From the IMG/VR virus record IMGVR_UViG_3300045988_164075: 64,000 nt of DNA. One strand, written 5' to 3'. The DNA comes from a virus. Under the pieces are notes generated by a model. That model worked only from the letters and a program-made list of their open reading frames with translations, was not told the DNA's origin and did no database searches. Within the stretch, counting starts at the first letter, position 1. The number at the start of each line of letters is the position of its first letter. Of the stretch, positions 13,074 to 48,523 are shown piece after piece. Both the position numbers and the translations under genes were made by a program.

Positions 13074-13889
13074 TTATTTAGCAGTTTCTGAGTTATTAAT
13101 TAGTGGTTTATATTCAGGGAATGTTTGAATCTTAATCTCATCTAGTATTTGCTTATTAGCAGGATCTTTAAAGAAGAAGATAACGGCTTCATCATTTACG
13201 CCTAAGCGAACATCTCCATACATAAATATACCACTTACTTTCTTAATTATGTTTTTATCAGTAGCTTCAATGAATAATAAACGTAATTGCTGATCCTGTC
13301 CTGTATACAAATCGATAATTAAGTTAGGATTAGCTTCTGCTTTCTGATATAAGAAATCCTGAATATCTGAATCAGGAGCGTTATACATACGTTTACCTAA
13401 AAGCTTAACTTTAGTTGCGCGACCTTCCGCAGAGTCTTGCTCGATAAAATTATTAGCTTTTGTAATAAGCTGAATTCTTTTAATGCGTCGTGCAGATTCT
13501 TCTCCAGGTTTTTCTACTCAAAATTCTGCTCGACCATAGCGATTTTTATCTCCATCTATAACTAGATTTCCTTTTTCATCTCTAGCGCCTCTCTCTTCAA
13601 CAATTAACTCACTATTTTTAATAGCTTCCCATTTGTGCCTTTCTAGAATATTATCAAGGTTAAATGTAGTTCCATCTTCAACTAAAATTTCCATATCAGC
13701 GGGTATAAAACCAGCACGTTCTGGATCATTAAGGTCTTTTTCACTAAGAATCATTTCAGATTCTCCGTTAGAATTCATACGAACCTCTTTTACAAATGGA
13801 GGATACATTCCATTCTTATCTTTTACTGGATTGAACCATACAGATTTCACCTTACCAAAAGCACTTCTTAGAGTTATTGTATTTGCCAT
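13074..13889 (-). CDS. hypothetical head-module protein, 271 aa
   Basis: ORFs 13518-13889 and 13074-13388 share a frame and are joined through the TGA at 13518-13520 (...RYGRAEF-W-VEKPGEE...). Confidence 0.65.
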
Positions 13890-13953
13890 ATTTATTCTTA
13901 TTAAACTTGTTCTTATTTAAAATTTATCTAAAATAGTCTTAATCTATAAATTA

Positions 13954-14007: not shown

Positions 14008-14082
14008 TTAGTCAGAGCTAACTAAAATAAATGAACGATAAGGATTGAATACGCCTACGCCTGCGTCTATGTTATTGTTAAT
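14008..14082 (-). CDS. MCP exon 7 (INNNIDAGVGVFNPYRSFILVSSD, then stop)
   Basis: Open frame directly after the intron 6 P9 hairpin (cattatagtaatataatg, last G at 14083). TAA at 14008-14010. An alternative 3' splice site after G 14067 would need the 5' site at 15200. Confidence 0.5.
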   Translation of the reverse strand: MNNNIDAGVGVFNPYRSFILVSSD

Positions 14083-17000
14083 CATTATATTACTATAATG
14101 TACAGACTATATCTTTAACTTATATATTTAAATATGAAACCTTTAGTTTGTTTTCTGAGTCCTTTAGCAACGTCTCTACATTTTGAAAATTCTTTAGCAC
14201 ACGCTCCTACAGTATCTCATACTTTAATTAGATTATTATTTAAATCGTATTGAGCAATTTTACGGCTTTCTCCAATTTTTAATTTTGGAAGTGATTGATA
14301 CACTTCTTTAGATTTTAAAATGTTATAAATTTCAGAAGGGTCCTTTAAAAAATAGTAACCTTTTGCTGAATTTTTTTTATTTAATGCTGAATATAAATTT
14401 GATTTAGTTATATCAAAAGATTTATATATATCTTCAGTATTTTCTCATTCAGCAATTAAATTTCCTTTTAAATCAAATTGATAAATTGTCGAAAACTTGT
14501 TTATCGTATATTCTTCAATATTTAATTTATCATATCTATTATAAGATCAGAATGAATTTTTGTAACTTCTTTTTTGTTTACAAGCATTATTAAAATTTTG
14601 ATAACTACATCCAAACTTTTCAGCTAAGTCTTTTATTCCAAAATATTCTTCTCAGAATTCGCCATTTAATTTATAACGATATACTGTTTTAAAACAAATC
14701 CCAGGATTAATTCCACCTAAACTAGTATTGTAATTATCTTTTCTTTTAATAAATTCTTTTGTTACAATCTCCTCCTCTTTTTTATATGCATCTAACTCTT
14801 CATTATAAACATATAAAATAGTTCTTCTAAAATTAGAGTATCCATATTTTTTTAGAGCGTATTGAAAAGCTGTTTTTGGATTTTTTAATAAATATCCAAT
14901 TTTAATTCCATTACCAATATATCCGTCAAATATATCTGGATTACTTGTTTTGTGTACCCCAATATAGATTTTTCCGTTAATTAAACACGTTGTACAATAA
15001 ACTATATATTTCATATTATTTAAGTTATCCTCTATTTTCCACTATGTTTAAGTGTACGCTCATTCGAGCTAGTCGTTGAACCTTACTTAGGATTACCTTA
15101 CTAGGCTTATCTTATCTAAGTCTTGGCTGCTGATTGTCCCAAGGGAGTTTCCAGCAATTAAAAGGATTTTTATATTATTATCACTAATAATAGGGACCTA
15201 CGCTGCGTAATTTAAGCCCCAGTTAATATATTTAGAAGCTGCTACAGGAGACGAAACTTGACCGCTTGACGTTCCGTTTTGTCCACCAACACCATTAATC
15301 CAGTTATGAACAATATCACAACCTTTAAATGTAAACATTTGAAGTGCTGGTTTGCCAGTTGCTGCATCTGCCGTTAGATCAAGGAATATACCGTATTTCT
15401 TATCAGGATATTCAAAATCAAACGAACGATCAATCTTAAATGTAATTTGATTCATTTATGTTAACTTATATTTTCATATAAGATCAGACTATATCTTAAT
15501 TTAATATACTATTACCATATATTAAATTCTCCCTATTTCGGAATAAATCCTACTCTACTTGGTTATTTTACAATATCTTTCTTATTGTATATCCTTTCGA
15601 TAGTCGTTGAACGTTTTCTAATAATTAGAACTTCGCTGCTGATTAGCATGTGTAATATTTACATTTAGCCTTCCAGCAATTAAAGGAGTTTTCTTTATAA
15701 TTAAAATATAAAGGAGCAATTATTTACCCGCAAATTCATAAGATTGATATGTTGCACCTAAATCAAGATATCCGTTAGAAGCTTTCGAGAACAAGAATGT
15801 TCCAACAGTCTTCCAATCACGAATCCAAGACGAAAGTGCATTTTGAACTTCATGCCACATCAACGTGTTGCAAATAAAGATATATTTGTTACCCGTTGGT
15901 CTTTCCGATTTAGTAGTCATTTGAGCAAGTACCTTATTAAAGATACGAACATTTAGATGTCCACTAAATACATATTTTCCAGCAAAACGTTCAATTTGGC
16001 TGATGATACCATCGCCAGAAATAATCATATTTGTGTTAACTTATATTTTCATATAAGATCAGACTATATCTTAACTTTATATACTGTTACCGCGTATAAA
16101 GTTCTCCCCGTTTCCATTTGATCAAATGTACTCTACTCATTTATTCATTAAGAGATTTCTTCTTAATTATACTTTCGATAGTCGTTGAACTTCCTTAAAT
16201 AAATTATTTAAGTTTAGCTGCTGATTGTCTTCATCTTTCATGTTCAGAGTTTCCAGCAATTAGAGGAGTTGTTTTAATTAGTTTACTAATTTAGCAGCCC
16301 ATTATTTCTTTAGGTTGCTGTGTTTCGGGATCAAAAATCTTAGGTTTGCCAAATTTATCTACATTAGTTTTACCCCAAAGTAATGCGTTATTACGAGCAA
16401 ACATGTAGGTATCTAAGCAATCTTTTTGTGCAGGATTAAGTTTGTAAACAGGATCGTCTTGCTGACCTTTACCGATTTGGATAAATACATCTTCCATTGC
16501 GGCATATTTAGCAGACCAGCTTACATCTGCACGATGGGTCGAGATAAATGTCCGATGCTTTTCGGTATTCATTATGTTATCTTATAGTTTCCTATAAGTT
16601 CAGACTATATCATTAACTTTCCTTTAATTTAAATATGAAATTTTTACAATGTTTACTTTGGCCTTTTATACAGCGTCGAACGCCTTGTCCATATTGTTGT
16701 ATCGCTTCCGTAATTGAGGAAAATTCTTTAATAAAGTTCCCTTTTAAATCAAATTGTTGTACAATCTGTTTCTGGTTATTTAATTTTAACTGTTTTGCGC
16801 AATCGACTTTTTCTAAATATACCTGAAATCCTTTAAATGTTCTACCTAAACGAATTGCTGAAGATATAGATGAAGAACTTTTAAGTCCAAATTCTCTTGC
16901 ACAAGCTATTGGAGAAGAAAATTCTTTATAAAAAGTTCCATCTAAATTATATAGGTATATTTTACAATTTTTAATTGACTTTGTTTGAGTTAAAGGAAAT

Positions 17001-19020
17001 TTTTCAAAAAATTCTCTAGAATAATATTTACCATTCACAGAATATTTACCTTGTATGGCCCTGTTAATAGTAGTTCTACTTACGGAATACTTTTTTATAA
17101 TATCTGTTACAGAATCATAACTTTTAATAAAATCTAAATTTTCATTAAATTCATAAATACTTCCAGGATTGAAAATATTAAAATCTTGAATGTTTAATTT
17201 AGATGTATAATAGGTTGTTCATAAACTTTTTTGTGAAGTAGATTTAAATTTAACCGCATTTTCAATACTAGTTGTAGAGCAACCAAAACATTCCGCAGCT
17301 TTTTTATACGAACTATAAGAATCAATAAAAGCTCCTTCAAGATCATATTGGTAAATAGTAATAGATTGATCTGGACCTTTTTTTCCTCCAACAATAGCAT
17401 TATATACATACGGTTTTTTTATAAACTCTTCATTTACAATTTTTGATTCTAAAGAAAATGCTTCTTCTGCTGTATCAAATACAGCTAATGTATATCTTCT
17501 AAAAGCGTTAACTCCATACTTATTTATAGCATATTGAAAAGGAGTCTTAGAATTCTTATATGTACTTGGTTGATTAAAATAACAACCGCAACCTAAATAT
17601 CCATCAAATATATCAGGATTTTTTGTTGAGTGAACTCCTATATAGATTTTATTATTTATTGTATTTACTGTAATATATAGAATTGTTTTCATATTTATAC
17701 TTTTATAAAGTTATCTCCCATTTCAGACTGTAGTCTTACTCCCTATTGGGATAGTCGTTGAACCTTATTTAGCATTTCGTCAATGACGCTTATGTAATCT
17801 AAATCTTGGCTGCTGATTACCATATTACTTTTAACTTAGGCTTCCAGCAATTAAAGAGATTATTCGATGTTGCTTACGCAACAAAGGAGCAATACATTTT
17901 TGTTTTACTCTGGTATTTTGTGTAACCTTCCTCCAAGTTACAACTAATTTTCTTACTGTTTCCAATAAGTTTAGACTATATCACCCTCTTTACTTCTATT
18001 ACCGTTATAAAGAGGCTCTCCGTTTCGGTGTTACCCTACTCTACTCACTTCTTCACTTATATATTTCTTATAAGCTATGTTTTCGATAGTCGTTAAGCAC
18101 AATCTCTATATAAGAGATCTTCGCTATGGATTGGCATATCTTATTTATTATAAGACTTAGCTTTCCCATAATTAGAAGAGTTTAATCGAGTAGCTTACGC
18201 TACAAGTGCACAAAGAAGTTTATGCATCTCAGGTTGATAGTTCGTTAAGAAACGCGTATTCATACCAGGCTGACAAGCAGAAAGATCAAGTACTTCACTA
18301 TAATCGTCACCTTGTAATTTACCAACTACTTCCCAATCGTTGTCGCGACGTCTAATCGGACGATTTAGAACAATAACCTGTTGACGAGAACCTTCAATAA
18401 TAAAGGTATCGTTTTTCTGATAGTAGTTTTCAGGGAAATGGAAGATAATATCTGATCCATTTGCGCCATTACCTTCAGGTACAGTTAGGAAGTGTACTCT
18501 TTTAATACGGTTTACATTAATATCCCATTCAACCATGAACGAGTTAATACTTTGAAAAGCATTGGGTCTACCTTTGTCTAGAGTATATACGTTCATTAAT
18601 GCTTCAGTAAGATGCGTAGCAGTATACTGATCATACAATGAAGATACGATACCTAAACGAGCAGGATTTGCCATGCTTGTTGTTATCCTATAAGTTTTTT
18701 ATCTTATAGTTCTTACAATTTACCATCTTGTAAGGTCGGCATACGTTTTCATCTAATAGATGTTGCGTACTCTTGGAGATATTATATTCTTTATAAATAA
18801 AGTTTCAATCTCTATGCTCTACGGTGAATATATATATTATTATATATTTTACCTCGGTGTTGCCGCTGAGAATTAGGACGGTTTCGCCGATTTTACGCAA
18901 TTTTTCAATAAGTATTTCTACCTAAAGGGGCGCTCATCCACCCAAGAACTTCATAAAGTCCTCTGCAGTACGAGTCGAAGCCATTTCGGGACGTACTGTT
19001 GTAAAATTAGATATTCTCAT
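14008..19020 (-). CDS. major capsid protein locus: 7 exons and 6 group I introns, about 494 aa after splicing
   Basis: Five ORF-track fragments (18195-18674, 16291-16572, 15720-16028, 15198-15455 plus small pieces) are separated by non-coding blocks carrying group I P/Q/R/S elements. Exon lengths sum to 1482 nt. The locus lies between an acidic scaffold-like gene and an Ig-domain decoration gene, is TGA-free, and has its own upstream promoter and downstream terminator. The MCP call rests on size, synteny and expression signals. Confidence 0.7.
14083..15209 (-). mobile_element. group I intron 6 of MCP, carrying a homing endonuclease gene
   Basis: Minus-strand P (aattgctggaaac), Q (aatcagcagcc), R (gttcaacgactag, 15070-15081) and S (gatatagtctg, 14103-14113) elements, plus a P9 hairpin with a GTAA loop. 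The 5' boundary is uncertain (15200-15210). Confidence 0.7.
14115..15014 (-). CDS. GIY-YIG homing endonuclease with NUMOD/IENR-type DNA-binding repeats, 299 aa
   Basis: N-terminus KYIVYCTTCLINGKIYIGVH...KYGYSNFRR. Continues through TGA at 14652 and three more. The TAA (14115-14117) abuts the S element. Confidence 0.75.
15210..15452 (-). CDS. MCP exon 6
   Basis: ORF 15198-15455 minus the intron-derived ATG. The frame is closed by TAA immediately upstream of that ATG. Confidence 0.65.
15453..15725 (-). ncRNA. group I intron 5 of MCP (no ORF, 273 nt)
   Basis: P at 15669-15681, Q at 15632-15644, R at 15599-15612 and S at 15482-15495 (all read as reverse complement). P1 pairs gggU-aa with tt-G-ctc. 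P9 is cttatat-GAAA-atataag. The terminal G is the G of the apparent ATG (15453). Confidence 0.75.
15726..16039 (-). CDS. MCP exon 5
   Basis: ORF 15720-16028. The exon ends at ggt (15726-15728) before an in-frame TAA. Its 5' end is either 16039 or 16025. Confidence 0.65.
16040..16292 (-). ncRNA. group I intron 4 of MCP (no ORF, about 255 nt)
   Basis: Same P/Q/R/S family (ccagcaattagagg, gctgctgatt, gatagtcgttgaac, gatcagactatatc on the plus strand). Both boundaries are uncertain (5' site 16293-16312, 3' site 16026 or 16040). Confidence 0.7.
16293..16569 (-). CDS. MCP exon 4
   Basis: ORF 16291-16572 minus the intron-derived ATG. Confidence 0.65.
16570..17906 (-). mobile_element. group I intron 3 of MCP, carrying a homing endonuclease gene
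   Basis: Core elements at 17740-17893 (plus strand gatagtcgttgaac, gctgctgatt, ccagcaattaaag) and S at 16600-16612. P1 pairs gagU-aa with tt-G-ctc, using the same guide sequence as intron 5. Confidence 0.7.
16613..17692 (-). CDS. GIY-YIG homing endonuclease with NUMOD/IENR-type repeats, 359 aa
   Basis: ORFs 17219-17692 (NNKIYIGVH...KYGVNAFRR) and 16613-17038 share a frame and are joined through TGA 17219-17221. The TAA lies next to the S element. Confidence 0.75.
17907..17951 (-). CDS. MCP exon 3, a 15-codon micro-exon (KISCNLEEGYTKYQS)
   Basis: The only open stretch between the end of the intron 2 P9 hairpin (G at 17952) and the intron 3 P1. Keeps exons 2 and 4 in phase. Confidence 0.45.
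17952..18221 (-). ncRNA. group I intron 2 of MCP (no ORF, 270 nt)
   Basis: Variant core (aattatgggaaagc, aatccatagcgaag, cttaacgactatcgaaaac, gatatagtctaaac on the minus strand). P1 pairs tgcaU with Gtgca. P2 is gtagc-GTAA-gctac. P9 is cttattg-GAAA-cagtaag. Confidence 0.65.
18222..18671 (-). CDS. MCP exon 2
   Basis: ORF 18195-18674, trimmed at the proposed splice sites (after cat at 18222, and after the ATG G at 18672). Confidence 0.65.
18672..18939 (-). ncRNA. group I-like intron 1 of MCP (divergent core, 268 nt)
   Basis: GC-richer structured block. P1 pairs gggU with Gccc. Hairpins: cgg-cgaaa-ccg, catc-tatta-gatg flanked by tacg/cgta, cttacaa/ttgtaag, ctataag/cttatag. The tail ends in ...aacaagcATG, like the other introns. 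Confidence 0.5.
18940..19020 (-). CDS. MCP exon 1 (MRISNFTTVRPEMASTRTAEDFMKFLG)
   Basis: ATG at 19020, 45 nt downstream of the scaffold-like gene stop. Runs 27 codons to ggt, followed by the intron P1. Confidence 0.45.
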
Positions 19021-19064: not shown

Positions 19065-20138
19065 TTATCTATAATATTTATCGTATAGATCAGAAAGTGT
19101 TTTAGGTTTTTCAGATTTATCGTTAGCATTAGTTTTATCTACTACTGTTTGACTAGCAGAAGAATTTTTATTACTTTTTGCTGTACGACGTTCCTGTTTT
19201 AAAATATCTTTCCAATATTCGCTAATATTTGAAATAGCATCTTGTCCAAAAAGTCTATACCATGCTAGTTCAACTAAAACTTTTGGATCATTTAAATCTT
19301 TAAAAAACTGACTATATCCATTAGTATCTTGTTCTAGTAAATAAGATAATATTTTAGATTTTTCATCATCTTCAATAACCAAAACATCACTTTCTGGATC
19401 TTTATAATCAAAAGATATTTCTTTAAAATTAGAAACAGATTCAGTTAAAGCAGAACGAAGTTGATTATATTCCTCTTCTTCTCTTCTTTGTGCTTCTAAG
19501 GCAGCTTCTTTCTCTTTTTCCTTATAGTCATTTCGAATAATCTCAACTTTCTTTTTAAATAAATCTTCATTCTCCTTTGCTTTATCTAATTCATACTTTA
19601 ATTCTTCATCTGACATACTAGTATATCTTGCTTTTAAATCTGCAAAGTATAATTCATCATCAGAATATGAATCTACATCGTAGTGTTGTTCTGGAGCATT
19701 ATTATTTAATGAAGCTTTATATTCTTCAACAGCAGTCTGTTTAAAATAATCTATTGCTTGTTCTAGTGTAACTCCATTATTTCTAAGCCACTGTACAGTG
19801 TTTATTTCTGATTCAGATAAATCAGGAGTAGAAAGTTCTTTGAGAATTGTTAACTGTTCTTTTCCGCTTAAAGAATTAAAATCTACTTCTTGAATTTCTC
19901 CATCTTCTGTTTCATATTTAATCTTTGAAACATCTTCAATACCTTTCTCTTTTAAGAATTCTTCAATAGGATTAATATCTACTTCTTCATTTGAATCACT
20001 ATTACTTTGATTCTCTAATTCAGGTTGACTAATCTCTCCTGTCTCAGTTGTACTAGATCCTTCTACCTCAACTTGCTCAGTTGTAGTAGTTTTATTATCT
20101 TCTAGTAAACTATCAAATAAATTTGGTAATTCTGCCAT
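19065..20138 (-). CDS. acidic coiled-coil protein, scaffold-like (357 aa from ATG 20138)
   Basis: ORF 19065-20168 (the track start is a GTG; MAELPNLFDS... from ATG 20138 is more likely). Very Glu/Asp-rich and immediately upstream of the MCP. Confidence 0.7.
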   Translation of the reverse strand: MAELPNLFDSLLEDNKTTTTEQVEVEGSSTTETGEISQPELENQSNSDSNEEVDINPIEEFLKEKGIEDVSKIKYETEDGEIQEVDFNSLSGKEQLTILKELSTPDLSESEINTVQWLRNNGVTLEQAIDYFKQTAVEEYKASLNNNAPEQHYDVDSYSDDELYFADLKARYTSMSDEELKYELDKAKENEDLFKKKVEIIRNDYKEKEKEAALEAQRREEEEYNQLRSALTESVSNFKEISFDYKDPESDVLVIEDDEKSKILSYLLEQDTNGYSQFFKDLNDPKVLVELAWYRLFGQDAISNISEYWKDILKQERRTAKSNKNSSASQTVVDKTNANDKSEKPKTLSDLYDKYYR

Positions 20139-20167
20139 TAACTTATTGTTTCTTATTATTAATTTCA

Positions 20168-20198
20168 CAAAATTAGACTTTTAAAAACTAAAATCAAA
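20168..20198 (-). promoter_or_regulatory. Bacteroidota-type sigma-A promoter (-33 TTTG / -7 TAnnTTTG)
   Basis: The minus strand reads TTTG (20198-20195), a 19-nt spacer, then TAATTTTG (20175-20168), about 30 nt upstream of ATG 20138. Confidence 0.45.
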
Positions 20199-42384: not shown

Positions 42385-43419
42385 TTAAATATTTGTTTTT
42401 ATTTTATTGTTATATGGATTTGAGTCATATAGCTGCATTTGTTCAACTTGGATTTGTTTTTCCTTTGTATCAATTACTCTATCATTATAATCCTTATTAT
42501 CTCGGATTTTTTGCTCTTCTAAAGAAATACGTTTACGCTCTAGATCAAGTTTTTCTTTACTATTTTTATCAATCTGATTTAACAGTTTTTTGTTTTCTGA
42601 ACTAAGTTGTTCTAGCTGTCTTTGATTTTCTTGAATTTGAGCTTCATATTGTTGTATACGTTGTTGTAATTGCATTAATTGATCGTTTTCAAGCTTTTTA
42701 GATTTCATTGAACGTGTTATATAACGTTCTAAGTCATTCATATTTTTAGCTTTGAAGATATTAACTACTAACTCAGAATCAGCCAATCCCGCTTTAATTA
42801 ATTCAGGACTAACAGATTTTAAAGCCTCCATATCTCTATATGTTCGAGTACTATCTTCGATATGAATATCAAAATCAGTTATAGTATAGTGTTCAGGCAA
42901 TGCAGTAAACAATTTAGCATATTTATCTCCTAAAATTATTGCACCTTTTAATCCCTTTTTAAATACTATTTTAGCTAGATTTAACATATCATAGTTAACT
43001 TCTTTATACATTAAATCCATTGCATCAAAGTACTGTTTAGTTAATAGAGTAGATTGTTTAATTCCAACTTGTACGTTTGAAACAGCGTCTCGTTGCTCTA
43101 TTTGACCTAGTTTTTCTTGGAATACTCCTGTAATAGATGATGCTTGTTGTTCAACAGATTGAATTGCAAGTTGTATTGCTTGTATTGCTTGAACTTTCAC
43201 TGTATCGTCAAATCCGTTAAAAATAGTATTTAACGATTGCCCTTCTTGAGAACTATCTAAAATAGCTACTCCATTCTTTTTTCAAGCTAATCACTTTTGA
43301 ATTCTTTCAGGCATTTCAACTCCTAATGCTTCAGGAACGTTAGCTAAGTCTAACCATTCGCCAACAGTTCCACTAGAAGCAATTAAGTTGTCTCTATAGA
43401 ACAATAGCATATCGTATTT
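42385..43419 (-). CDS. portal protein exon 2
   Basis: The frame of ORF 42385-43200 extends upstream through TGA codons to KYDMLLFYRDNLIASSGTVGEW..., directly after an intron tail that ends ...gaacacaaATG. Confidence 0.6.
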
Positions 43420-44551
43420 CATTTGTGTTCACATAAGTTCGTTACTCTTATGCCGTCTATTTAGACTGCTACATATTTCTATGTAGATCAGACTATATCA
43501 TATATAAATTAATGTTTTGTAATATAATTGTTAATAAATCTTCTTGAAAACATTCAGTAGATGTTTTATTTGGCCAATTTTGAGGAACATACAAATTATT
43601 TTTAATAATCTTTTTTAATTCCGCTTCAAAATTTACACATGCTTCAAATTCATTAAATTCAATAATTTTAAGAACATCGATGTTATAATTTAACTTTTTG
43701 TAGTCATCAAATCTTCTTAAGTTTCCATCAGTTTTCTTATATGTGATTCCTAATTTATAAAATTTTTCTGTTGAATTTGATAATTTAATTAGATAAAACA
43801 CATTACTTTTTGTTCAATTGGTATTACATTTTATACAACCACAGCCCGAAAATATATAATCATTATCTATTTTAACTTCTCCATGAATAGGACAAATTAA
43901 TATACATTTTCCATTATGCCGATTTGTAGATTCAATTTTAAAATCATAAACATTATTATACAAATAACGTAACTGTTTATAAAAATAATCTTTTCTATTA
44001 ACCGCACTACGAATATTTGGAGTGTGACCAGCTAATAATGCATCAGGAGAAATAGAAACTATTCCATATCGTGTATCAAATAGCATTTTATCCTTCATTT
44101 TTGTATACTCAGATAAAGGATGAATTTGATTATATATCTTAGGTTCTTTGTCTTTTAACATATTCATAAAATACTCAGTTCTATTAACCGCTAGTAATAT
44201 TCCTGGACGATTATTAAATAACTGTTTAGCCTGAGTTAATTTTATAATACCGTATCTATCTTTAACAATAATTGGTTGTGATAAACCTTTAAAGTGCCCA
44301 ATGACTTCAAGCTCCCCATTATATAGTTGCTTTACTTTTTGTTTATAATTTTCTTCGTTATATTTCATAACTACTTATTAATTTATTAACAATTATCTTT
44401 AATTTATACTTCCGCGCTTCGGATCACTTGATCCTACATAATAGTCGTTGAACCTTCCATTTTTATATGGCTTGGCTGCTGATTGCCCTCGACTTTACGT
44501 TAGGGGTTTCCAGCAATTCACGGAATTTAGACAGGACTCATACTAATGTTA
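43420..44551 (-). mobile_element. group I intron in the portal gene, carrying a homing endonuclease gene
   Basis: Same core family as the MCP introns: plus strand aatagtcgttgaac (about 44440), ggctgctgatt, ccagcaattc (about 44510) and gatcagactatatc (43487-43499). P9 is ctacata-GAAA-tatgtag. Confidence 0.7.
43493..44368 (-). CDS. homing endonuclease, 291 aa: Zn-ribbon N-terminal part plus T5orf172/GIY-YIG-superfamily C-terminal domain
   Basis: ORFs 43814-44368 (CPIHG...CGCIKC) and 43493-43801 (FYLIKLSNSTEKFYKLGIT...) share a frame, joined by TGA 43814. The TAG stop lies inside the S element. Confidence 0.65.
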
Positions 44552-45739
44552 ATCCTGTAGATCAGAAGTAGCTAAAATAAGAGAGAACGGTTGCCCGTTT
44601 TTATCTAAAAAGAATGTTCCGTTAACTGATAATGTACATTTACTTGGATAATCAGAAGAGCGCACTACATATTTAGATTCACCTCTAGTAATATAAATAT
44701 CATTTCCAATTTTTACACCTTCGTGTCTAGTTAAATACCCTGTTTTTTTATTAACTTCAAGTCATTCAACTTCATAAACTGGAATTGTATTAAGCAATCT
44801 ATGTCCATTTATTGTTTCATCAAATGGCAACATTGGAGTTACTTCTAATCCTCCTAATATACCTGTACTTGTTCCTTCTAAGATAGTTCCTGTATCAGTT
44901 CTAATTTCTGTATTAGCTGCTGGAACTCTTACAAATACACTATTAAAATATGCTTGATTCTTATGAAAATCATTATCTAAAGATTCTAGAGCTTCTGAAG
45001 TTAATTCATCGTGATACCGATTAATTATTTCCTCTTTAGTCATGTACTTACGAATAACTGCTCGATAAGAATCTTTTAAATAATAAGAATTAGTATTACG
45101 TTCAATAAAGGTATTTAGAGGATTTAATATTTCTAATGATACATTTTCTCCATTTTCAGTTGGAATCACTCGATAATAACATGTTCCTGTAATCAAGAGA
45201 TCTAAAAATAACTCTCGCATCTTATTTTTTAAATCTATGTTGCGAGATTGACGTAAATATATTAGTATATTTTGTGCTGCAATTTCATATTCAGAAGTGA
45301 AAGATTCTTCTGTATCTGCAATTAATTTATCTAATTCTGCCTGAATAAATGGATCATTATTTGCAAGTTCTCTGTTATCTAATAGTATCGGAATAATAGA
45401 ATTTTGTAAATATGATTTTAAATACTTATAGACAGTTTCGTTAATTTTTAATTGCTTTTCTCGCATAATATTAGAAACAGTTTTAGAATCTTTACAAGAT
45501 ATTTTTAAATCAGGTTCTAATCCTAAATACTCTCCAATTAATACATCAATATGTTTTTTAATTAAAGGAGTAAAATTAATAGAGGTAGGAGTACCTATTC
45601 CAAAATTATCTTCTAAATGTCTAAACTGTTCTGCATCTCTAGTACAATGATAATAGTTATATGCTTTTCTAAGCTTAACTTTATCGTAGACCAGTTCAGC
45701 AATTGTCTTTTTAATTTTTTCAATATCTGTATTATTCAT
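44552..45739 (-). CDS. portal protein exon 1
   Basis: ORF 44762-45739 continues through TGA 44762 to ...FSLILATSDLQD, then TAA inside the intron. The spliced product is 740 aa, and the DLQD/KYDMLLFYRDNLIASSG junction looks portal-like. Confidence 0.65.
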
Positions 45740-46041
45740 TATAATATATCGTTATTACAATAATCGTCTGTATCGATACATTGTGACTCATATCATTCGT
45801 GTTTAATTGCTCGGAAATGATGTGCTCGTTCTATTTGGCGTTTACGTAAGTCCTTAGCAATAAACTTTAGAAATGATTCTTTATCTCCTTGATAATTAAT
45901 AACCATAGGAGACATTTCTTGGTTTAGATATAAGTTTAATGTAAAATCATCTTCACTTTCGATTACTTTTAAGTGTCCAATATACTTACAACATGTAACT
46001 TTTTCAATAATATCTAAAACCTCTTTTTCTAATTGTGTCAT
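45739..46041 (-). CDS. hypothetical protein, 100 aa
   Basis: ORF 45793-46041 reads through TGA 45793 to a TAA that overlaps the portal ATG (TAATG). Confidence 0.55.
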
Positions 46042-47610
46042 GTTGTTGGAATTATACCATATCGTTTATATCCTCTGTCGTCAATATATCATCCAATATC
46101 TTTTCAAGTTTTAGTAACTTCGTTTTTAACTTTAGGATTAATTCCAGTTAATTCTTCATCCGCCATTTCACACATCCCAAGAGCAGCTACAATATCAAAT
46201 TTTCTTTTATTTTCGTATGAATAGTTTAGTAACTGTTCAAGCATTTCATCAGAATCAATTCCATAACAGTAATCATTTACAAAGTTATTAATCAATTCTA
46301 ATCCATGTTTAATAATAGTTTCTGTTGCAGGTACCCCTATCATGGCCGAATTTCCTTTTTTTATATCTCCTAAACTAGATTTTGGACGTCGCATAAATAG
46401 AGAATCTTTCTTTTTTTCTCTAAAGTAAGTTAATATACTGATTTTTGTATGTTCAAGTAACGCCTTACAATTGTACCATACTAAAATCTTCATTGCGTTT
46501 TCATAAGCTTCTCGTATGTCTCTTGGGCGATCTTTATAAATACAAACATATTTAGGTTCGTTTAAACCAAATACTCTTCTTTTTACAACAATACAAAAAT
46601 CTGATACATCGTATTGTGTTGCAGAATCCCCAGTACCCTGATCGATAGAGTCTATTCCTGCAACATATAAATTATTATATATATTACCTTCGCTATCTCG
46701 TTTTGGTTCTTCGTAAACTAATATTTTACTATTAGGACTAGATACTGCTTTAACTTTATTTCGAGAATTATCGTTATCTTCTCTATCTCATAATAACGCT
46801 ATATGTTGAGGAGAAGTTCCCATTTTATGTACTCGAATCTGAGTAATTCTATCTGCAATTAATACGGAATCAAATATATTTTCACCTTGTCGTAATAATG
46901 CTTCTTTAGGAGTAAAACAATATTCTGAACAATACTCTAATAACCGTTCTCCTGATTTTAATTTGCGTTGTTCTTCATAAAAAGCTTTAGCTCGTTTAGT
47001 ATCGGTTACTCCTCGATTATCAACATATCCAGGACGCATCATAAATTCATATGCTGGAATAAAGAACCCAGTATACTGTGCAGTACCATCATCTGAATAG
47101 AAGTTTTTATATGGAAGTACTCCTGCGCTTAATGGATCTTCAAACATTTTAGCTAAACCAGCTAGAGCAGGCCCCATATCACCTCCCGTCCCTCATGCGA
47201 TCTTAATCCCGACTCTAGCTCCTCCTAGTTCAACTAGAGCAGTACCTTGCGTTCACGATGTTGAAAGTATTGGATTAGATCCAGCCTCTTCAAATAAGAG
47301 TCTATCTACACGTTCACCTCTAATTTTTCTTGGGTGATCTGCTGTTATTCCTTCTATATCAGCCATTCGCCCAAATTCTATGCCTTCACTATCAACAAGA
47401 GATGCACGTTTGTGTTTTATATTATCAATTTTCTGACGAAGTCGTTTCATACCTCCGTCAGTATTTTGATTTAATCAGTTTAATTGTACTCAGCATTTAC
47501 CTAATACAGTATCAACATAACTCTCAGTATATGCTGTATAAATAGTAGTAAAACCTTTAGTAGTAATAAAAGGACGAACACCTAAACAAGCTCCAATTTC
47601 TGAAAAACCT
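46029..47610 (-). CDS. terL: terminase large subunit exon 2
   Basis: Fragments 47253-47450 (ADHPRKIRGERVDRLLFEEAGS), 46788-47177 and 46104-46493 are in one frame, linked by TGA (47253, 46104 and others). TAG at 46029-46031. Confidence 0.7.
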
Positions 47611-47877
47611 CAATTTTTGTTATCTCTAAGGCTTTTTATCCCTAGACTCTTATAATTTCTTATAAGTTCAGCATATATTTTCATCCTTAACTAAATATTA
47701 GGATGTTTCGCTCTCGTGGAAAGTTTATCTCTGTGATTCCTTTCTATGCGTTACGATGGTCAGTGATTAATTGACTTATCTCGCTGTTAACATAGTGATT
47801 TTAATCACCTTAGTCTTCTGCGATATAGCGAAATTTATTACTTTTATATTACTATAAAAGAGGGCAGGTATTAGTTT
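47611..47877 (-). ncRNA. group I-like intron in terL (no ORF, 267 nt, core unlike the MCP family)
   Basis: Non-coding structured block. P1 pairs ggggU with Gccct. P2 is cttttata-GTAA-tataaaag. Further helices are tcgct/agcga and gtgatt/aatcac. It ends in G (47611). Splicing gives LKSRGV-GFSEIGA. Confidence 0.6.
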
Positions 47878-48512
47878 ACCCCACGAGATTTTAATGCAAC
47901 ACAATCTTTATAAAGATATTCGCACATTTCTAGATAGTGAAAATATTCATATTGTTTTGCAAAAAAAGTTGGAAATGCTTCGGTACGTCCAGCACCAGCT
48001 TTTTTCTCTCCATCAACAGTTTTCATTCGATAGAAATTCAAAAAGAAATAATGATCTCCAGTTATCCTATATTTTCCAACAGTATAACCATCTACACAAC
48101 GTTTATACTGTTCTGTTCAATAATCACGATAAGGTTTACTATTTTTAGGATATTCTGTATAATGTCCTCTTTCCATAAACAATCTACCTGCCTCAGTAAA
48201 TGGAGTTGGATCAAAATCTAAACCTTGAGTTTCATTTATAGGTCTATAACCAGTTAATTCATAAGATAATTCTGGATCAAAATATAATATTTCTTCATCA
48301 AGAGGAACATCTCACGCACCATTGCGTTTTCTATGTCCTTCCTTAGGAAACTCATAATATGGACTTTCCTCTTCGTCTTCTGTTTTTGATACAGTTACAT
48401 CTTGAAATAATTTCTTTTTTAATTCTTCTTCATACCTGTCTGCAAATGTGGGTAAAGTTGCAGGAGGATTTTTTCTTGGTCTACCTCGTTTTCGTTTTAC
48501 TTCTTGTTCCAT
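47878..48512 (-). CDS. terL: terminase large subunit exon 1
   Basis: ORF 48312-48512 reads through TGA 48312. It continues ...FPTFFAKQYEYFHYLEMCEYLYKDCVALKSRG and is closed by TAA two codons into the intron. Confidence 0.65.
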
Positions 48513-48523
48513 TATTTATATTT

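What the first reader, a model, noticed from the sequence alone, without database searches (positions are those of the whole stretch)
14008..19020. Major capsid protein gene apparently shattered into seven exons by six group I introns
A coding sequence of about 1.5 kb is spread over 5 kb. Coding pieces of 27, 150, 15, about 92, about 105, 81 and 24 codons alternate with non-coding blocks of 255-273 nt, or about 1.1-1.3 kb where an endonuclease ORF is inserted. Five blocks carry near-consensus group I elements on the minus strand: P AATTGCTGGAA, Q AATCAGCAGC, R GTTCAACGACTATC and S GATATAGTCTGA. They also have GNRA-capped P2 and P9 hairpins and plausible P1 pairings with a G-U at the cut. The exons sum to 1482 nt (494 aa), and none makes a complete protein alone. 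I do not know of capsid genes with this intron density. The virion cannot assemble unless all six introns splice.
Basis: partly seen in the sequence, partly recalled or inferred. Interest (0 to 1): 0.9.

Follow-up and report, generated by a model that had tools for sequence, protein, structure and literature searches.

The report
Capsid gene split by six introns
The major capsid protein gene of a very common, TGA-recoded crAss-like gut phage really is cut into seven exons by six self-splicing-type (group I) introns, an extreme example of an intron overload already described for this phage group.

Summary
On the minus strand, 19020-14008, a 1413-nt coding sequence (470 aa) is spread over 5013 nt in seven exons separated by six inserts of 268, 288, 1337, 286, 273 and 1148 nt. 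The joined exons align end to end with more than 100 uninterrupted 469-480-aa proteins. Those proteins belong to the Crassvirus capsid family, and a model of the closest one matches the phicrAss001 capsid. Five inserts match Rfam's group I intron model; the two that carry endonuclease genes match it in pieces. The first insert matches only weakly, but compensatory base changes across four related copies support a group I fold. Near-identical phage genomes lack individual introns, and their exon-exon joints fall exactly at four of the six predicted junctions. Sister strains carry 5-7 introns at nine or more sites, leaving exons as short as 9 nt. Splicing itself is inferred, not shown. The kind is known: Yutin et al. 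2021 described a Zeta-group crAss-like capsid gene in five fragments. This case is denser, not different in kind.

The parts
18940..19020 (-). MCP exon 1 (81 nt, 27 codons, MRISNFTTVRPEMASTRTAEDFMKFLG)
   Evidence: Aligns without gaps to the N-termini of intact homologues. Its last base, T18940, is the splice-site U of the RF00028 alignment.
18672..18939 (-). Intron 1 (268 nt, no ORF): a group I intron of a divergent subtype
   Evidence: RF00028 gives only 20.1 bits (E 0.0047 in a 341-nt search). The minimum-energy fold gives P1-P6, P7.1, P8, P9 and P9.1 in group I order. On four related copies, a structure with the P3/P7 pseudoknot has 95% of cells paired and 24 of 50 pairs with compensatory changes; slid controls give 32-46% and 2-7 pairs. 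It is 99.6-100% identical in the 15 fetched loci of this phage that hold it, two of them cut off by a contig end.
18222..18671 (-). MCP exon 2 (450 nt, 150 codons)
   Evidence: Colinear with homologues. The ORF that includes its read-through into intron 2 occurs verbatim in 1553 blocks of the assembly collection.
17934..18221 (-). Intron 2 (288 nt, no ORF), group I
   Evidence: RF00028 gives 74.2 bits, E 5e-17, over the full model. The 3' end is set at G17934 because all homologues lack the six residues KISCNL, and because all six introns carry an 11-18-nt tail after the last hairpin (P9, or P9.1 in intron 1). A proximal G at 17952 would also stay in frame, so this junction is the least certain.
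17907..17933 (-). MCP exon 3, a 27-nt micro-exon (EEGYTKYQS)
   Evidence: Matches the conserved homologue motif H|EEGYTKYQS|N exactly. T17907 is the splice-site U of the RF00028 alignment of intron 3.
16570..17906 (-). Intron 3 (1337 nt), group I, with an endonuclease ORF inserted in its 3' part
   Evidence: RF00028 gives 54 bits for the 5' part (17916-17690) and 27 bits for the 3' end (16739-16581). It is identical in L087 and L088. Six other strains have a different 308-nt ORF-less intron at the same site, which scores 60 bits in L086.
16613..17692 (-). Homing endonuclease gene inside intron 3 (359 aa, one in-frame TGA)
   Evidence: PHROG 314 'homing endonuclease', E 1e-22. Pfam NUMOD1 at 71 bits and I-HmuI_NUMOD-like at 33 bits. 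GIY-YIG is below the cut-off at 16 bits. The ORF is continuous only if TGA is read as sense.
16312..16569 (-). MCP exon 4 (258 nt, 86 codons)
   Evidence: Colinear with homologues. It is contiguous with exon 5 in strain L081.
16026..16311 (-). Intron 4 (286 nt, no ORF), group I
   Evidence: RF00028 gives 71.8 bits. It is absent from L081, where exon 4 joins exon 5 directly at this position.
15726..16025 (-). MCP exon 5 (300 nt, 100 codons)
   Evidence: Colinear with homologues. It is contiguous with exon 6 in L081, L084 and L085.
15453..15725 (-). Intron 5 (273 nt, no ORF), group I
   Evidence: RF00028 gives 70.6 bits. It is absent from L081, L084 and L085 with an exact joint. L083 and L087 have a ~1.2-kb ORF-bearing insert at this site instead.
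15215..15452 (-). MCP exon 6 (238 nt; ends after the first base of a codon)
   Evidence: Its end, T15215, is the splice-site U of the RF00028 alignment. Joined to exon 7 it gives ...INWG-Y-AGVGV..., exactly as in homologues. It is contiguous with exon 7 in L082, L084 and L085.
14067..15214 (-). Intron 6 (1148 nt), group I, with an endonuclease ORF
   Evidence: RF00028 gives 45.6 bits for the 5' part, and the S element GATATAGTCT lies at 14113. A 279-nt ORF-less intron at the same site in sister strains scores 79.5 bits. The site is empty in L082, L084 and L085.
14115..15014 (-). Homing endonuclease gene inside intron 6 (299 aa, four in-frame TGA)
   Evidence: PHROG 314, E 1e-23. NUMOD1 at 39 bits. 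SegE_GIY-YIG at 17.9 bits, below the cut-off. TGA count.
14008..14066 (-). MCP exon 7 (59 nt including the TAA stop)
   Evidence: Completes the Y codon and gives AGVGVFNPYRSFILVSSD*, colinear with homologue C-termini.

Best explanation
The locus is the single major capsid protein gene of a ~160-kb crAss-like phage of the human gut that reads TGA as a sense codon. It most resembles the 'Zeta' group. Six mobile group I introns interrupt the gene.

Proposed mechanism:
1. The gene is transcribed as one roughly 5-kb late pre-mRNA.
2. Each intron folds into its own ribozyme. Its internal guide sequence pairs with the last bases of the upstream exon (helix P1), with a U-G pair at the cut.
3. A free guanosine attacks the 5' splice site. 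The freed exon end then attacks after the intron's terminal G.
4. Six such events join the seven exons into a 1413-nt mRNA for a 470-aa HK97-fold capsid protein.
5. In-frame TAA or TAG stops 2-11 codons into every intron would release ribosomes that read into unspliced RNA.
6. Introns 3 and 6 carry endonuclease genes (NUMOD1 DNA-binding modules and a probable GIY-YIG catalytic domain). These need TGA read-through to be translated. They would cut intron-less alleles during co-infection and copy the intron in (homing). This would account for the presence/absence mosaic seen among strains.

Shown here: exon colinearity, RNA family matches, covariation, and exact intron-less alleles. Inferred: self-splicing, the order of splicing, endonuclease activity and homing.
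For: - RNA family: RF00028 gives 74, 72 and 71 bits for the three ORF-less introns I2, I4 and I5. It gives 54+27 bits for I3 and 45.6 bits for I6. ORF-less introns at the I3 and I6 sites in sister strains score 60 and 79.5 bits.
- Intron 1: the weak RF00028 alignment puts its splice-site U at the exon-1 end. A group I fold with the P3/P7 pseudoknot is supported by 24 of 50 compensatory pairs.
- Ends: the U...G rule is met at 6 of 6 introns.
- Colinearity: the joined exons give 470 aa and hit intact proteins at 58-76% identity over 80-100% of the query, 100% for most. After junction correction there are no gaps at the junctions.
- Natural intron-less alleles at 98-100% exon identity show exact joints: E4|E5 (L081); E5|E6 (L081, L084, L085); E6|E7 (L082, L084, L085). 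In L227 and L159 the exon 3/4 joint (site D) is unoccupied, so the coding sequence runs straight across it.
- Capsid identity: Pfam Crass_capsid matches the homologues at 40 and 34 bits against a cut-off of 27. The top seven Foldseek hits are phicrAss001 capsid chains, E 5e-14 to 3e-12.
- The phage is clearly viable and common: the exon-2 ORF occurs in 1553 assembly blocks, on contigs of up to ~164 kb.
- TGA recoding: long-ORF coverage is 55.6 kb under code 4 against 26 kb under code 11.
- Every intron has an early in-frame TAA or TAG.
- Literature: the same phenomenon is reported in Zeta-group crAss-like phages (PMC7886860). Splicing of predicted group I introns in gut jumbo phages has been confirmed by metatranscriptomes (PMC12880540).
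Against: - There are no RNA data, so splicing is inferred.
- Intron 1 scores far below Rfam's gathering score (20 against 50 bits). Its covariation test rests on only four sequences, and the structure was derived from one of them.
- Intron 6 is below the gathering score in the window itself.
- The 3' splice site of intron 2 is set by homology and by analogy with the other introns. A proximal G at 17952 would also keep the frame and add six residues.
- The spliced product itself does not reach Pfam's Crass_capsid threshold. The structural test had to use a 76-78%-identical homologue, and that model has low confidence (pLDDT 57).
- The GIY-YIG assignment is below the cut-off.
- Tandem related introns around a 27-nt exon could cause exon skipping, as in phage Twort, so not every transcript need give full-length protein.
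Confidence: 0.88

Rival explanations
1. One or more of the six inserts are dead intron relics that no longer splice. In that case this strain's capsid gene would be a pseudogene, and the genome would be defective or dependent on a helper.
For: Intron 1 scores only 20 bits against RF00028. Intron 6 is below the gathering score. No RNA evidence is available.
Against: - Exons are 98-100% identical across many independent assemblies and keep intact frames.
- Intron 1 is 99.6-100% conserved, and its relatives keep every helix through compensatory changes.
- The same six-site configuration recurs in other near-complete genomes of ~157-161 kb (L087, L088), with other intron alleles at sites G and/or H.
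- The exon-2 ORF occurs in 1553 assembly blocks.
- No second capsid gene was seen in the window.
Confidence: 0.04
2. The capsid protein is made as separate polypeptides from the exon-sized ORFs, which then assemble without covalent joining. Four of these ORFs begin at an ATG formed by the last three bases of an intron.
For: Introns 1, 3, 4 and 5 end in ATG, so exons 2, 4, 5 and 6 look like ATG-initiated ORFs. Gene callers predict them as separate genes.
Against: - Exon 3 (9 codons) and exon 7 have no start codon.
- Exon 6 ends in mid-codon.
- Sister strains encode the same segments fused.
- The intervening RNA has conserved ribozyme structure, which a spacer between separate genes would not need.
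- Every relative retrieved, other than this phage's own strains, is a single chain.
Confidence: 0.02
3. Intron 1 is not a group I intron. It would be another kind of intervening element that is removed by a different route.
For: There was no RF00028 hit in the window-scale searches. Its relatives in L092 also gave no RF00028 hit. It lacks the P/Q/R/S consensus motifs.
Against: - RF00028 aligns it over the full model, with the splice-site U at the correct base.
- The helix order P1 to P9.1, with a P3/P7 pseudoknot, is supported by covariation.
- The exon ends in U and the intron ends in G.
- A sister copy in this window's TerL restores the reading frame under the same rule.
- At 268 nt with no ORF, it is far too small for a group II intron.
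Confidence: 0.05
4. The pattern is an assembly or chimera artefact.
For: The window is metagenomic, AT-rich sequence with repeated intron cores.
Against: The same architecture appears in independent assemblies from different studies and assemblers (ENA, Logan, IMG/VR). Flanks are conserved and the variation is orderly, site by site.
Confidence: 0.01

Closest known systems
Intron-rich capsid gene of Zeta-group crAss-like phages (cMAG OLRF01000054; Yutin et al. 2021, PMC7886860)
   Same: Both are large (145-192 kb) crAss-like gut phages with stop-codon recoding. In both, the MCP gene is broken by several group I introns, some of which carry endonuclease genes. The published group has up to 14 introns per genome.
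   Different: - The published example has five fragments and four inserts, and its introns were found mainly through endonuclease domains.
- Here there are seven exons and six introns, four of them without an ORF, plus a 27-nt exon.
- Sister strains reach seven introns, with 9-18-nt exons and nine or more polymorphic sites.
- Group membership of this window was not tested by phylogeny.
Staphylococcus phage Twort orf142 (three group I introns, with exon skipping; Landthaler & Shub 1999, as cited in PMC10136302 and PMC11878797)
   Same: Several related IA-type group I introns lie in tandem in one phage structural gene, around a very short exon (23 nt).
   Different: Twort has three introns, against six here. 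Splicing and exon skipping were shown experimentally for Twort; here nothing is shown at the RNA level.
T4 td / nrdB / sunY introns with I-TevI-type GIY-YIG endonucleases
   Same: Group I introns with extra helices between P7 and P3, an endonuclease ORF looped out of the ribozyme core, early in-frame stops, and strain-to-strain presence/absence. This comparison rests on established knowledge, not on tests made here.
   Different: T4 has one intron per gene and uses the standard genetic code. The endonuclease ORFs here contain 1-4 TGA codons that must be read through.
Jug (jumbo gut) phages (PMC12880540) and Bastillevirinae (PMC11878797)
   Same: Many small group I introns split essential phage genes. 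Splicing was confirmed by (meta)transcriptomes.
   Different: Genes there are split into two or three fragments (Bastillevirinae: by up to three introns per gene). No recoding is reported for Jug phages.
Capsid-gene introns in mycobacteriophage LittleE and lactococcal phage Tuc2009 (PMC3706429)
   Same: A capsid gene is interrupted by a probable group I intron that splices efficiently in late infection.
   Different: Each has a single intron.

Membership tests
Group I intron (Rfam RF00028) | Conserved core of helices P3-P9, scored by the covariance model at or above the gathering score (50 bits) | tested here: met
   I2 scores 74.2, I4 71.8, I5 70.6, and the 5' part of I3 54.0 bits. I6 scores 45.6 bits and I1 20.1 bits, both below the cut-off. 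An ORF-less intron at the I6 site in sister strains scores 79.5 bits.
Group I intron (Rfam RF00028) | P3/P7 pseudoknot topology, supported by covariation (tested for intron 1, which Rfam misses) | tested here: met
   On alignment A5 of four copies, 95.4% of cells are paired. 24 of 50 pairs have changes on both sides, including P3 (4 of 6 pairs) and P7 (1 of 5). Slid controls give 2-7 such pairs. Caveat: there are only four sequences, and the structure was derived from one of them.
Group I intron (Rfam RF00028) | The 5' exon ends in U, paired with G in P1, and the intron ends in G | tested here: met
   Both rules hold at 6 of 6 introns. The model's splice-site U falls on the exon end for I1, I2, I3, I5 and I6. 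For I4, a U-G pair lies two columns away.
Group I intron (Rfam RF00028) | Exact removal restores a continuous reading frame | tested here: met
   The 470-aa product is colinear with intact homologues. Intron-less alleles in sister strains give exact joints at four junctions.
Group I intron (Rfam RF00028) | Guanosine-dependent self-splicing | not testable with these tools
   This needs in-vitro transcription and splicing, or RNA sequencing.
Group I subgroup IA (phage type) | Extra helices P7.1/P7.2 between P7 and the 3' strand of P3 | tested here: inconclusive
   RF00028 alignments show a 50-65-nt insertion at exactly this place in I2-I5 (33 nt in I6). I1 has a covarying hairpin there. No subgroup-specific models were available.
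Crassvirus major capsid protein (Pfam PF23898 Crass_capsid) | Match to the family profile at or above the cut-off (27 bits) | tested here: inconclusive
   The spliced product gives no reported match. Its intact homologues P0001 (76-78% identical) and P0003 score 40.2 and 34.1 bits. A weak colinear match to PHROG 11589 'major head protein' has E 9e-4.
Crassvirus major capsid protein (Pfam PF23898 Crass_capsid) | HK97-type fold closest to the phicrAss001 capsid protein | tested here: met
   This was tested on the proxy P0001. The top seven Foldseek hits are chains of 7QOH, 7QOI and 7QOF, E 5e-14 to 3e-12, over 455-498 columns. Other HK97-fold capsids follow. The model has low confidence (pLDDT 57) and TM-scores are only ~0.3.
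Zeta-group crAss-like phages (Yutin et al. 2021) | Genome of 145-192 kb, stop-codon reassignment in late genes, and many introns or inteins | tested here: met
   Contigs that carry this gene reach 157-164 kb. TGA recoding is clear. The 64-kb window holds at least eight group I introns.
Zeta-group crAss-like phages (Yutin et al. 2021) | Phylogenetic placement of TerL, MCP or portal within the Zeta clade | not tested
   No reference Zeta sequences were at hand. The nearest annotated TerL relatives are crAss-like phages at 27-29% identity.
GIY-YIG homing endonucleases | GIY-YIG catalytic domain | tested here: inconclusive
   PF01541 gives 16.2 and 10.2 bits against a cut-off of 22.6. SegE_GIY-YIG gives 17.9 bits against 25. 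A motif of the IYIG...DGY(I/L)G type is visible. PHROG 314 'homing endonuclease' matches at E 1e-22 to 1e-23.
GIY-YIG homing endonucleases | NUMOD-type DNA-binding modules, and a location inside an intron | tested here: met
   NUMOD1 scores 71 and 39 bits against a cut-off of 22.8. I-HmuI_NUMOD-like scores 33 bits against 27. Both ORFs lie between the 5' ribozyme core and the 3' P7 strand/P9.

The most novel reading that the evidence does not exclude
This capsid gene may be the most intron-dense protein-coding gene yet seen in a phage. One species has nine or more polymorphic group I insertion sites, with up to seven occupied at once. Its exons of 9, 15, 18 and 27 nt are mostly shorter than the 23-nt Twort exon that is known to be skipped.

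If so, producing a very abundant late protein faithfully would need some way to stop neighbouring related ribozymes from cooperating, for example distinct guide sequences or an order of splicing. Alternatively, in-frame exon skipping could produce capsid isoforms, since every micro-exon is a multiple of 3 nt.
Probability: 0.2. Interest if true: 0.7.

Novelty: new member of a known kind. Interest (0 to 1): 0.48.

Why it matters
- Annotation: gene callers see eight or more small 'hypothetical' ORFs here instead of one capsid gene. The same holds for TerL and portal in this window, so standard annotation of a very common gut phage is wrong at its most important genes.
- Undercounting: introns without an endonuclease ORF, and a subtype that Rfam barely detects, are missed by protein-domain-based surveys. 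Published intron counts for these phages are therefore probably too low.
- A natural test system: the strain-to-strain mosaic of 5-7 introns at nine or more sites, with exons as short as 9 nt, could be used to study homing competition. It could also show how tandem ribozymes avoid or exploit exon skipping in a gene that must be expressed at very high levels.

Tried and rejected
- Sequence searches of the spliced product, and of a 14-sequence profile, against PDB found nothing.
- Pfam gave no direct hit for the spliced product.
- A megablast of the locus against GenBank phages found only a 36-nt match. tblastn found two unannotated gut contigs at 49-54% identity, both with uninterrupted genes.
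- I tested whether the introns sit in unusually conserved protein motifs. This is only a trend: mean conservation 0.80 against 0.75, P about 0.08. I did not use it.
- I first thought sites E (after CDS nt 801) and F (after nt 816) were mutually exclusive between two haplotypes. L227 and L159 carry both, so I dropped the idea.
- Rfam found nothing in L092, even where copies related to intron 1 lie. This shows that RF00028 is blind to that subtype.
- No tRNA genes are present in the window, so the TGA suppressor could not be located.
They add KISCNL and replace Y with LNINNNID, which no homologue has.


Full report
**What is in the sequence**

The window has 29.7% G+C and is clearly read with TGA as a sense codon. 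Stop-to-stop ORFs of at least 150 codons cover 55.6 kb under code 4, against 26.0 kb under code 11. Even under code 4, the stretch 19020-14008 on the minus strand stays fragmented into short coding pieces with stop-rich blocks between them.

**The protein**

Joining the pieces gives a protein that finds 392 relatives. The best 120 are mostly intact proteins of 440-481 aa, at 58-76% identity and 94-100% coverage. They come from contigs of up to 176 kb. The alignment is colinear through every junction (alignment A1).

- All homologues read ...PEMH-EEGYTKYQSN... So intron 2 ends 18 nt further downstream, at G17934, and exon 3 is only 27 nt.
- All homologues read ...INWG-Y-AGVGVFNPYRS... So exon 6 ends at T15215, one base into a codon, and exon 7 starts at 14066.

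The corrected exons are 19020-18940, 18671-18222, 17933-17907, 16569-16312, 16025-15726, 15452-15215 and 14066-14008. They total 1413 nt and encode 470 aa, with a TAA stop and no in-frame TGA. Introns make up 3600 of the 5013 nt.

**Is it the capsid protein?**

- The spliced product gives only a weak colinear match to a 'major head protein' PHROG (E 9e-4), and no Pfam or PDB sequence match.
- Its intact homologues P0001 and P0003 pass Pfam's Crass_capsid cut-off, at 40 and 34 bits against 27.
- An AlphaFold model of P0001 has low confidence (pLDDT 57). Even so, its seven best PDB matches are phicrAss001 capsid chains over 455-498 columns (E 5e-14 to 3e-12), followed by other HK97-fold capsids.

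**Are the inserts group I introns?**

Rfam's RF00028 matches the minus strand at 74, 72 and 71 bits for the three ORF-less introns I2, I4 and I5. It gives 54 bits for the 5' part of I3 and 27 bits for its 3' end. It gives 45.6 bits for the 5' part of I6. The model's splice-site U falls on the exon end deduced from the protein alignment for I1, I2, I3, I5 and I6. For I4, a U-G pair lies two columns away. All six 5' exons end in T and all six introns end in G.

Intron 1 is the weak point. It gave no hit at window scale, and only 20 bits (E 0.0047) in a 341-nt search, though there too the U is in the right place. Three further lines support it:
- Its minimum-energy fold gives P1-P6, P7.1, P8, P9 and P9.1 in group I order. 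The two P7 strands lie where the pseudoknot needs them.
- I found relatives of it: one in this window's TerL gene and two in the TerL of an unrelated IMG/VR contig, L092.
- On the four-sequence alignment, the hand-drawn structure has 95.4% of cells paired and 24 of 50 pairs with changes on both sides. With the 3' partners slid by 1-3 columns, the figures are 32-46% and 2-7 pairs.

The sample is small, and the structure was derived from one of the sequences. But the signal covers P3, P4, P6, P7, P7.1, P8, P9 and P9.1.

**Natural intron-less alleles**

The exon-2 ORF, including its read-through into intron 2, occurs verbatim in 1553 blocks of the assembly collection. The contigs are from human gut samples and reach ~164 kb. 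I aligned the window's coding sequence to eight such loci and to five from IMG/VR.

Exons are 98-100% identical, but intron content varies:
- L081 lacks I4 and I5.
- L084 and L085 lack I5 and I6.
- L082 lacks I6.

In each case the exons abut exactly at my junctions, including the mid-codon E6|E7 joint.

Other strains carry introns at sites that are empty in the window:
- After CDS nt 540, which leaves a 9-nt exon (or 27 nt if intron 2 used its proximal 3' site).
- After about nt 580.
- After nt 801, which leaves a 15-nt exon when site 816 is also occupied.

Different intron alleles, with or without an endonuclease gene, also occupy the same sites. In all there are nine or more sites and 5-7 introns per gene. 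L086 gives seven RF00028 matches within its capsid gene, six of them at 53-93 bits. L227 and L159 also have seven introns. Introns 1 and 2 were present in every genome examined, but most were retrieved through sequence that includes parts of these introns. No near-identical uninterrupted version of this protein appeared in the database; the best intact hit is 76% identical.

**Endonucleases**

Both long introns contain an ORF that matches PHROG 314 'homing endonuclease' (E about 1e-23) and Pfam NUMOD1, above its cut-off. GIY-YIG matches are below the cut-off. The ORFs hold one and four in-frame TGA codons, so they can only be translated in the recoded state.

**Context**

The window's TerL finds only crAss-like phages among annotated records, at 27-29% identity. 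A neighbouring gene has a weak CrAss_Ring_1 Pfam hit.

TerL and portal are also split:
- The portal insert matches RF00028 at 56 bits and carries an endonuclease ORF.
- The TerL insert (47877-47611) is an intron-1-type element. Removing it under the U...G rule restores the frame and gives a 739-aa TerL.

So this 64-kb window holds at least eight group I introns.

**Mechanism**

The shown and inferred steps are set out in the best explanation. Every intron has an in-frame TAA or TAG within 2-11 codons of the 5' splice site. This would release ribosomes that enter unspliced RNA. In intron 1 the first stop is a TGA, followed by a TAG, which fits recoding.

**Comparison with what is known**

- Yutin et al. 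2021 (PMC7886860) described the Zeta group of crAss-like phages. Its genomes are 145-192 kb, use TAG or TGA reassignment, and hold up to 14 introns and 3 inteins. One MCP gene there is split into five fragments. TGA codons inside intron ORFs were also reported. Their introns were found mainly through endonuclease domains, so ORF-less introns like four of the six here would be undercounted.
- A 2025 paper characterises further TGA-recoded Zeta phages (PMC12386605).
- Twort orf142 has three introns and a 23-nt exon that can be skipped (PMC10136302, PMC11878797).
- Bastillevirinae genes have up to three introns.
- Jug phages average 18.5 introns per genome, with metatranscriptome support for splicing (PMC12880540).

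The kind is therefore known. What is added here:
- exact junctions;
- six introns in one gene, and up to seven in sister strains;
- very short exons;
- the population mosaic;
- an intron subtype that Rfam barely sees.

**Caveats**

- There is no RNA evidence.
- The 3' site of intron 2 rests on homology and analogy.
- Zeta-group membership rests on shared features, not on a phylogeny.
- The structural test used a proxy protein and a low-confidence model.

Noticed in passing
whole window (1-64000): TGA is read as a sense codon. Long-ORF coverage doubles under code 4 (55.6 kb against 26 kb), and many structural genes only become continuous that way. No tRNA gene, and so no suppressor, lies in the window.
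   Followed up: partly
window 47611-47877 (-), between ORFs 47871-48515 and 46029-47690: TerL is split by a 267-nt ORF-less intron of the same divergent subtype as MCP intron 1. Cutting after T47878 and after G47611 restores the frame (..ALKSRGV|GFSEIGA..) and gives a 739-aa TerL. The first ~26 residues of the apparent 551-aa ORF are intron sequence read in frame.
   Followed up: partly
window about 43471-44612 (-), between portal ORFs 44549-45751 and 42385-43530: The portal gene is split by a group I intron. RF00028 gives 56 bits for the 5' part and 23 bits for the 3' end, and the P/Q/R/S motifs are exact. The intron carries an endonuclease ORF (43493-44374, PHROG 681). The match was missed in the window-wide gathering scan. 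Exact splice sites were not determined.
   Followed up: partly
window 18672, 16570, 16026, 15453 (3' ends of introns 1, 3, 4, 5): Four of the six introns end in ...ATG, so the downstream exon looks like an ATG-initiated ORF and is called as a separate gene. In all six, the terminal G lies 11-18 nt beyond the last hairpin (P9, or P9.1 in intron 1), after a UAAC-containing tail. This is not where the Rfam consensus places it. The reason is unexplained.
   Followed up: no
L081-L086 10742-10750 and 11020-11037; L227 5226-5241: Sister strains have micro-exons of 9, 18 and 15 nt between group I introns. Three introns lie within 27 nt of coding sequence around PEMH|EEG|YTKYQS|N. All micro-exons are multiples of 3 nt, so skipping one would keep the frame.
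   Followed up: partly
L092 6545-6840 and 7270-7570: An unrelated IMG/VR crAss-like contig has its TerL split by two elements of the intron-1 type. Rfam RF00028 finds neither, which shows a blind spot of the model for this subtype.
   Followed up: partly
window 13074-13916 (-): Two code-11 ORFs just downstream of the capsid gene merge into one 271-aa ORF when TGA is read through. It has no family match. The 357-aa acidic, coiled-coil-like ORF upstream (19065-20168) may be a scaffold protein, but it also has no match.
   Followed up: no
window 15725-15700 and 17906-17880 (guide sequences of introns 5 and 3): Introns 3 and 5 appear to use the same 4-nt exon-binding sequence, GCUC. It pairs with GAGU and GGGU respectively, and exon 1 also ends in GGGU. 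In principle this allows cross-pairing and exon skipping.
   Followed up: no
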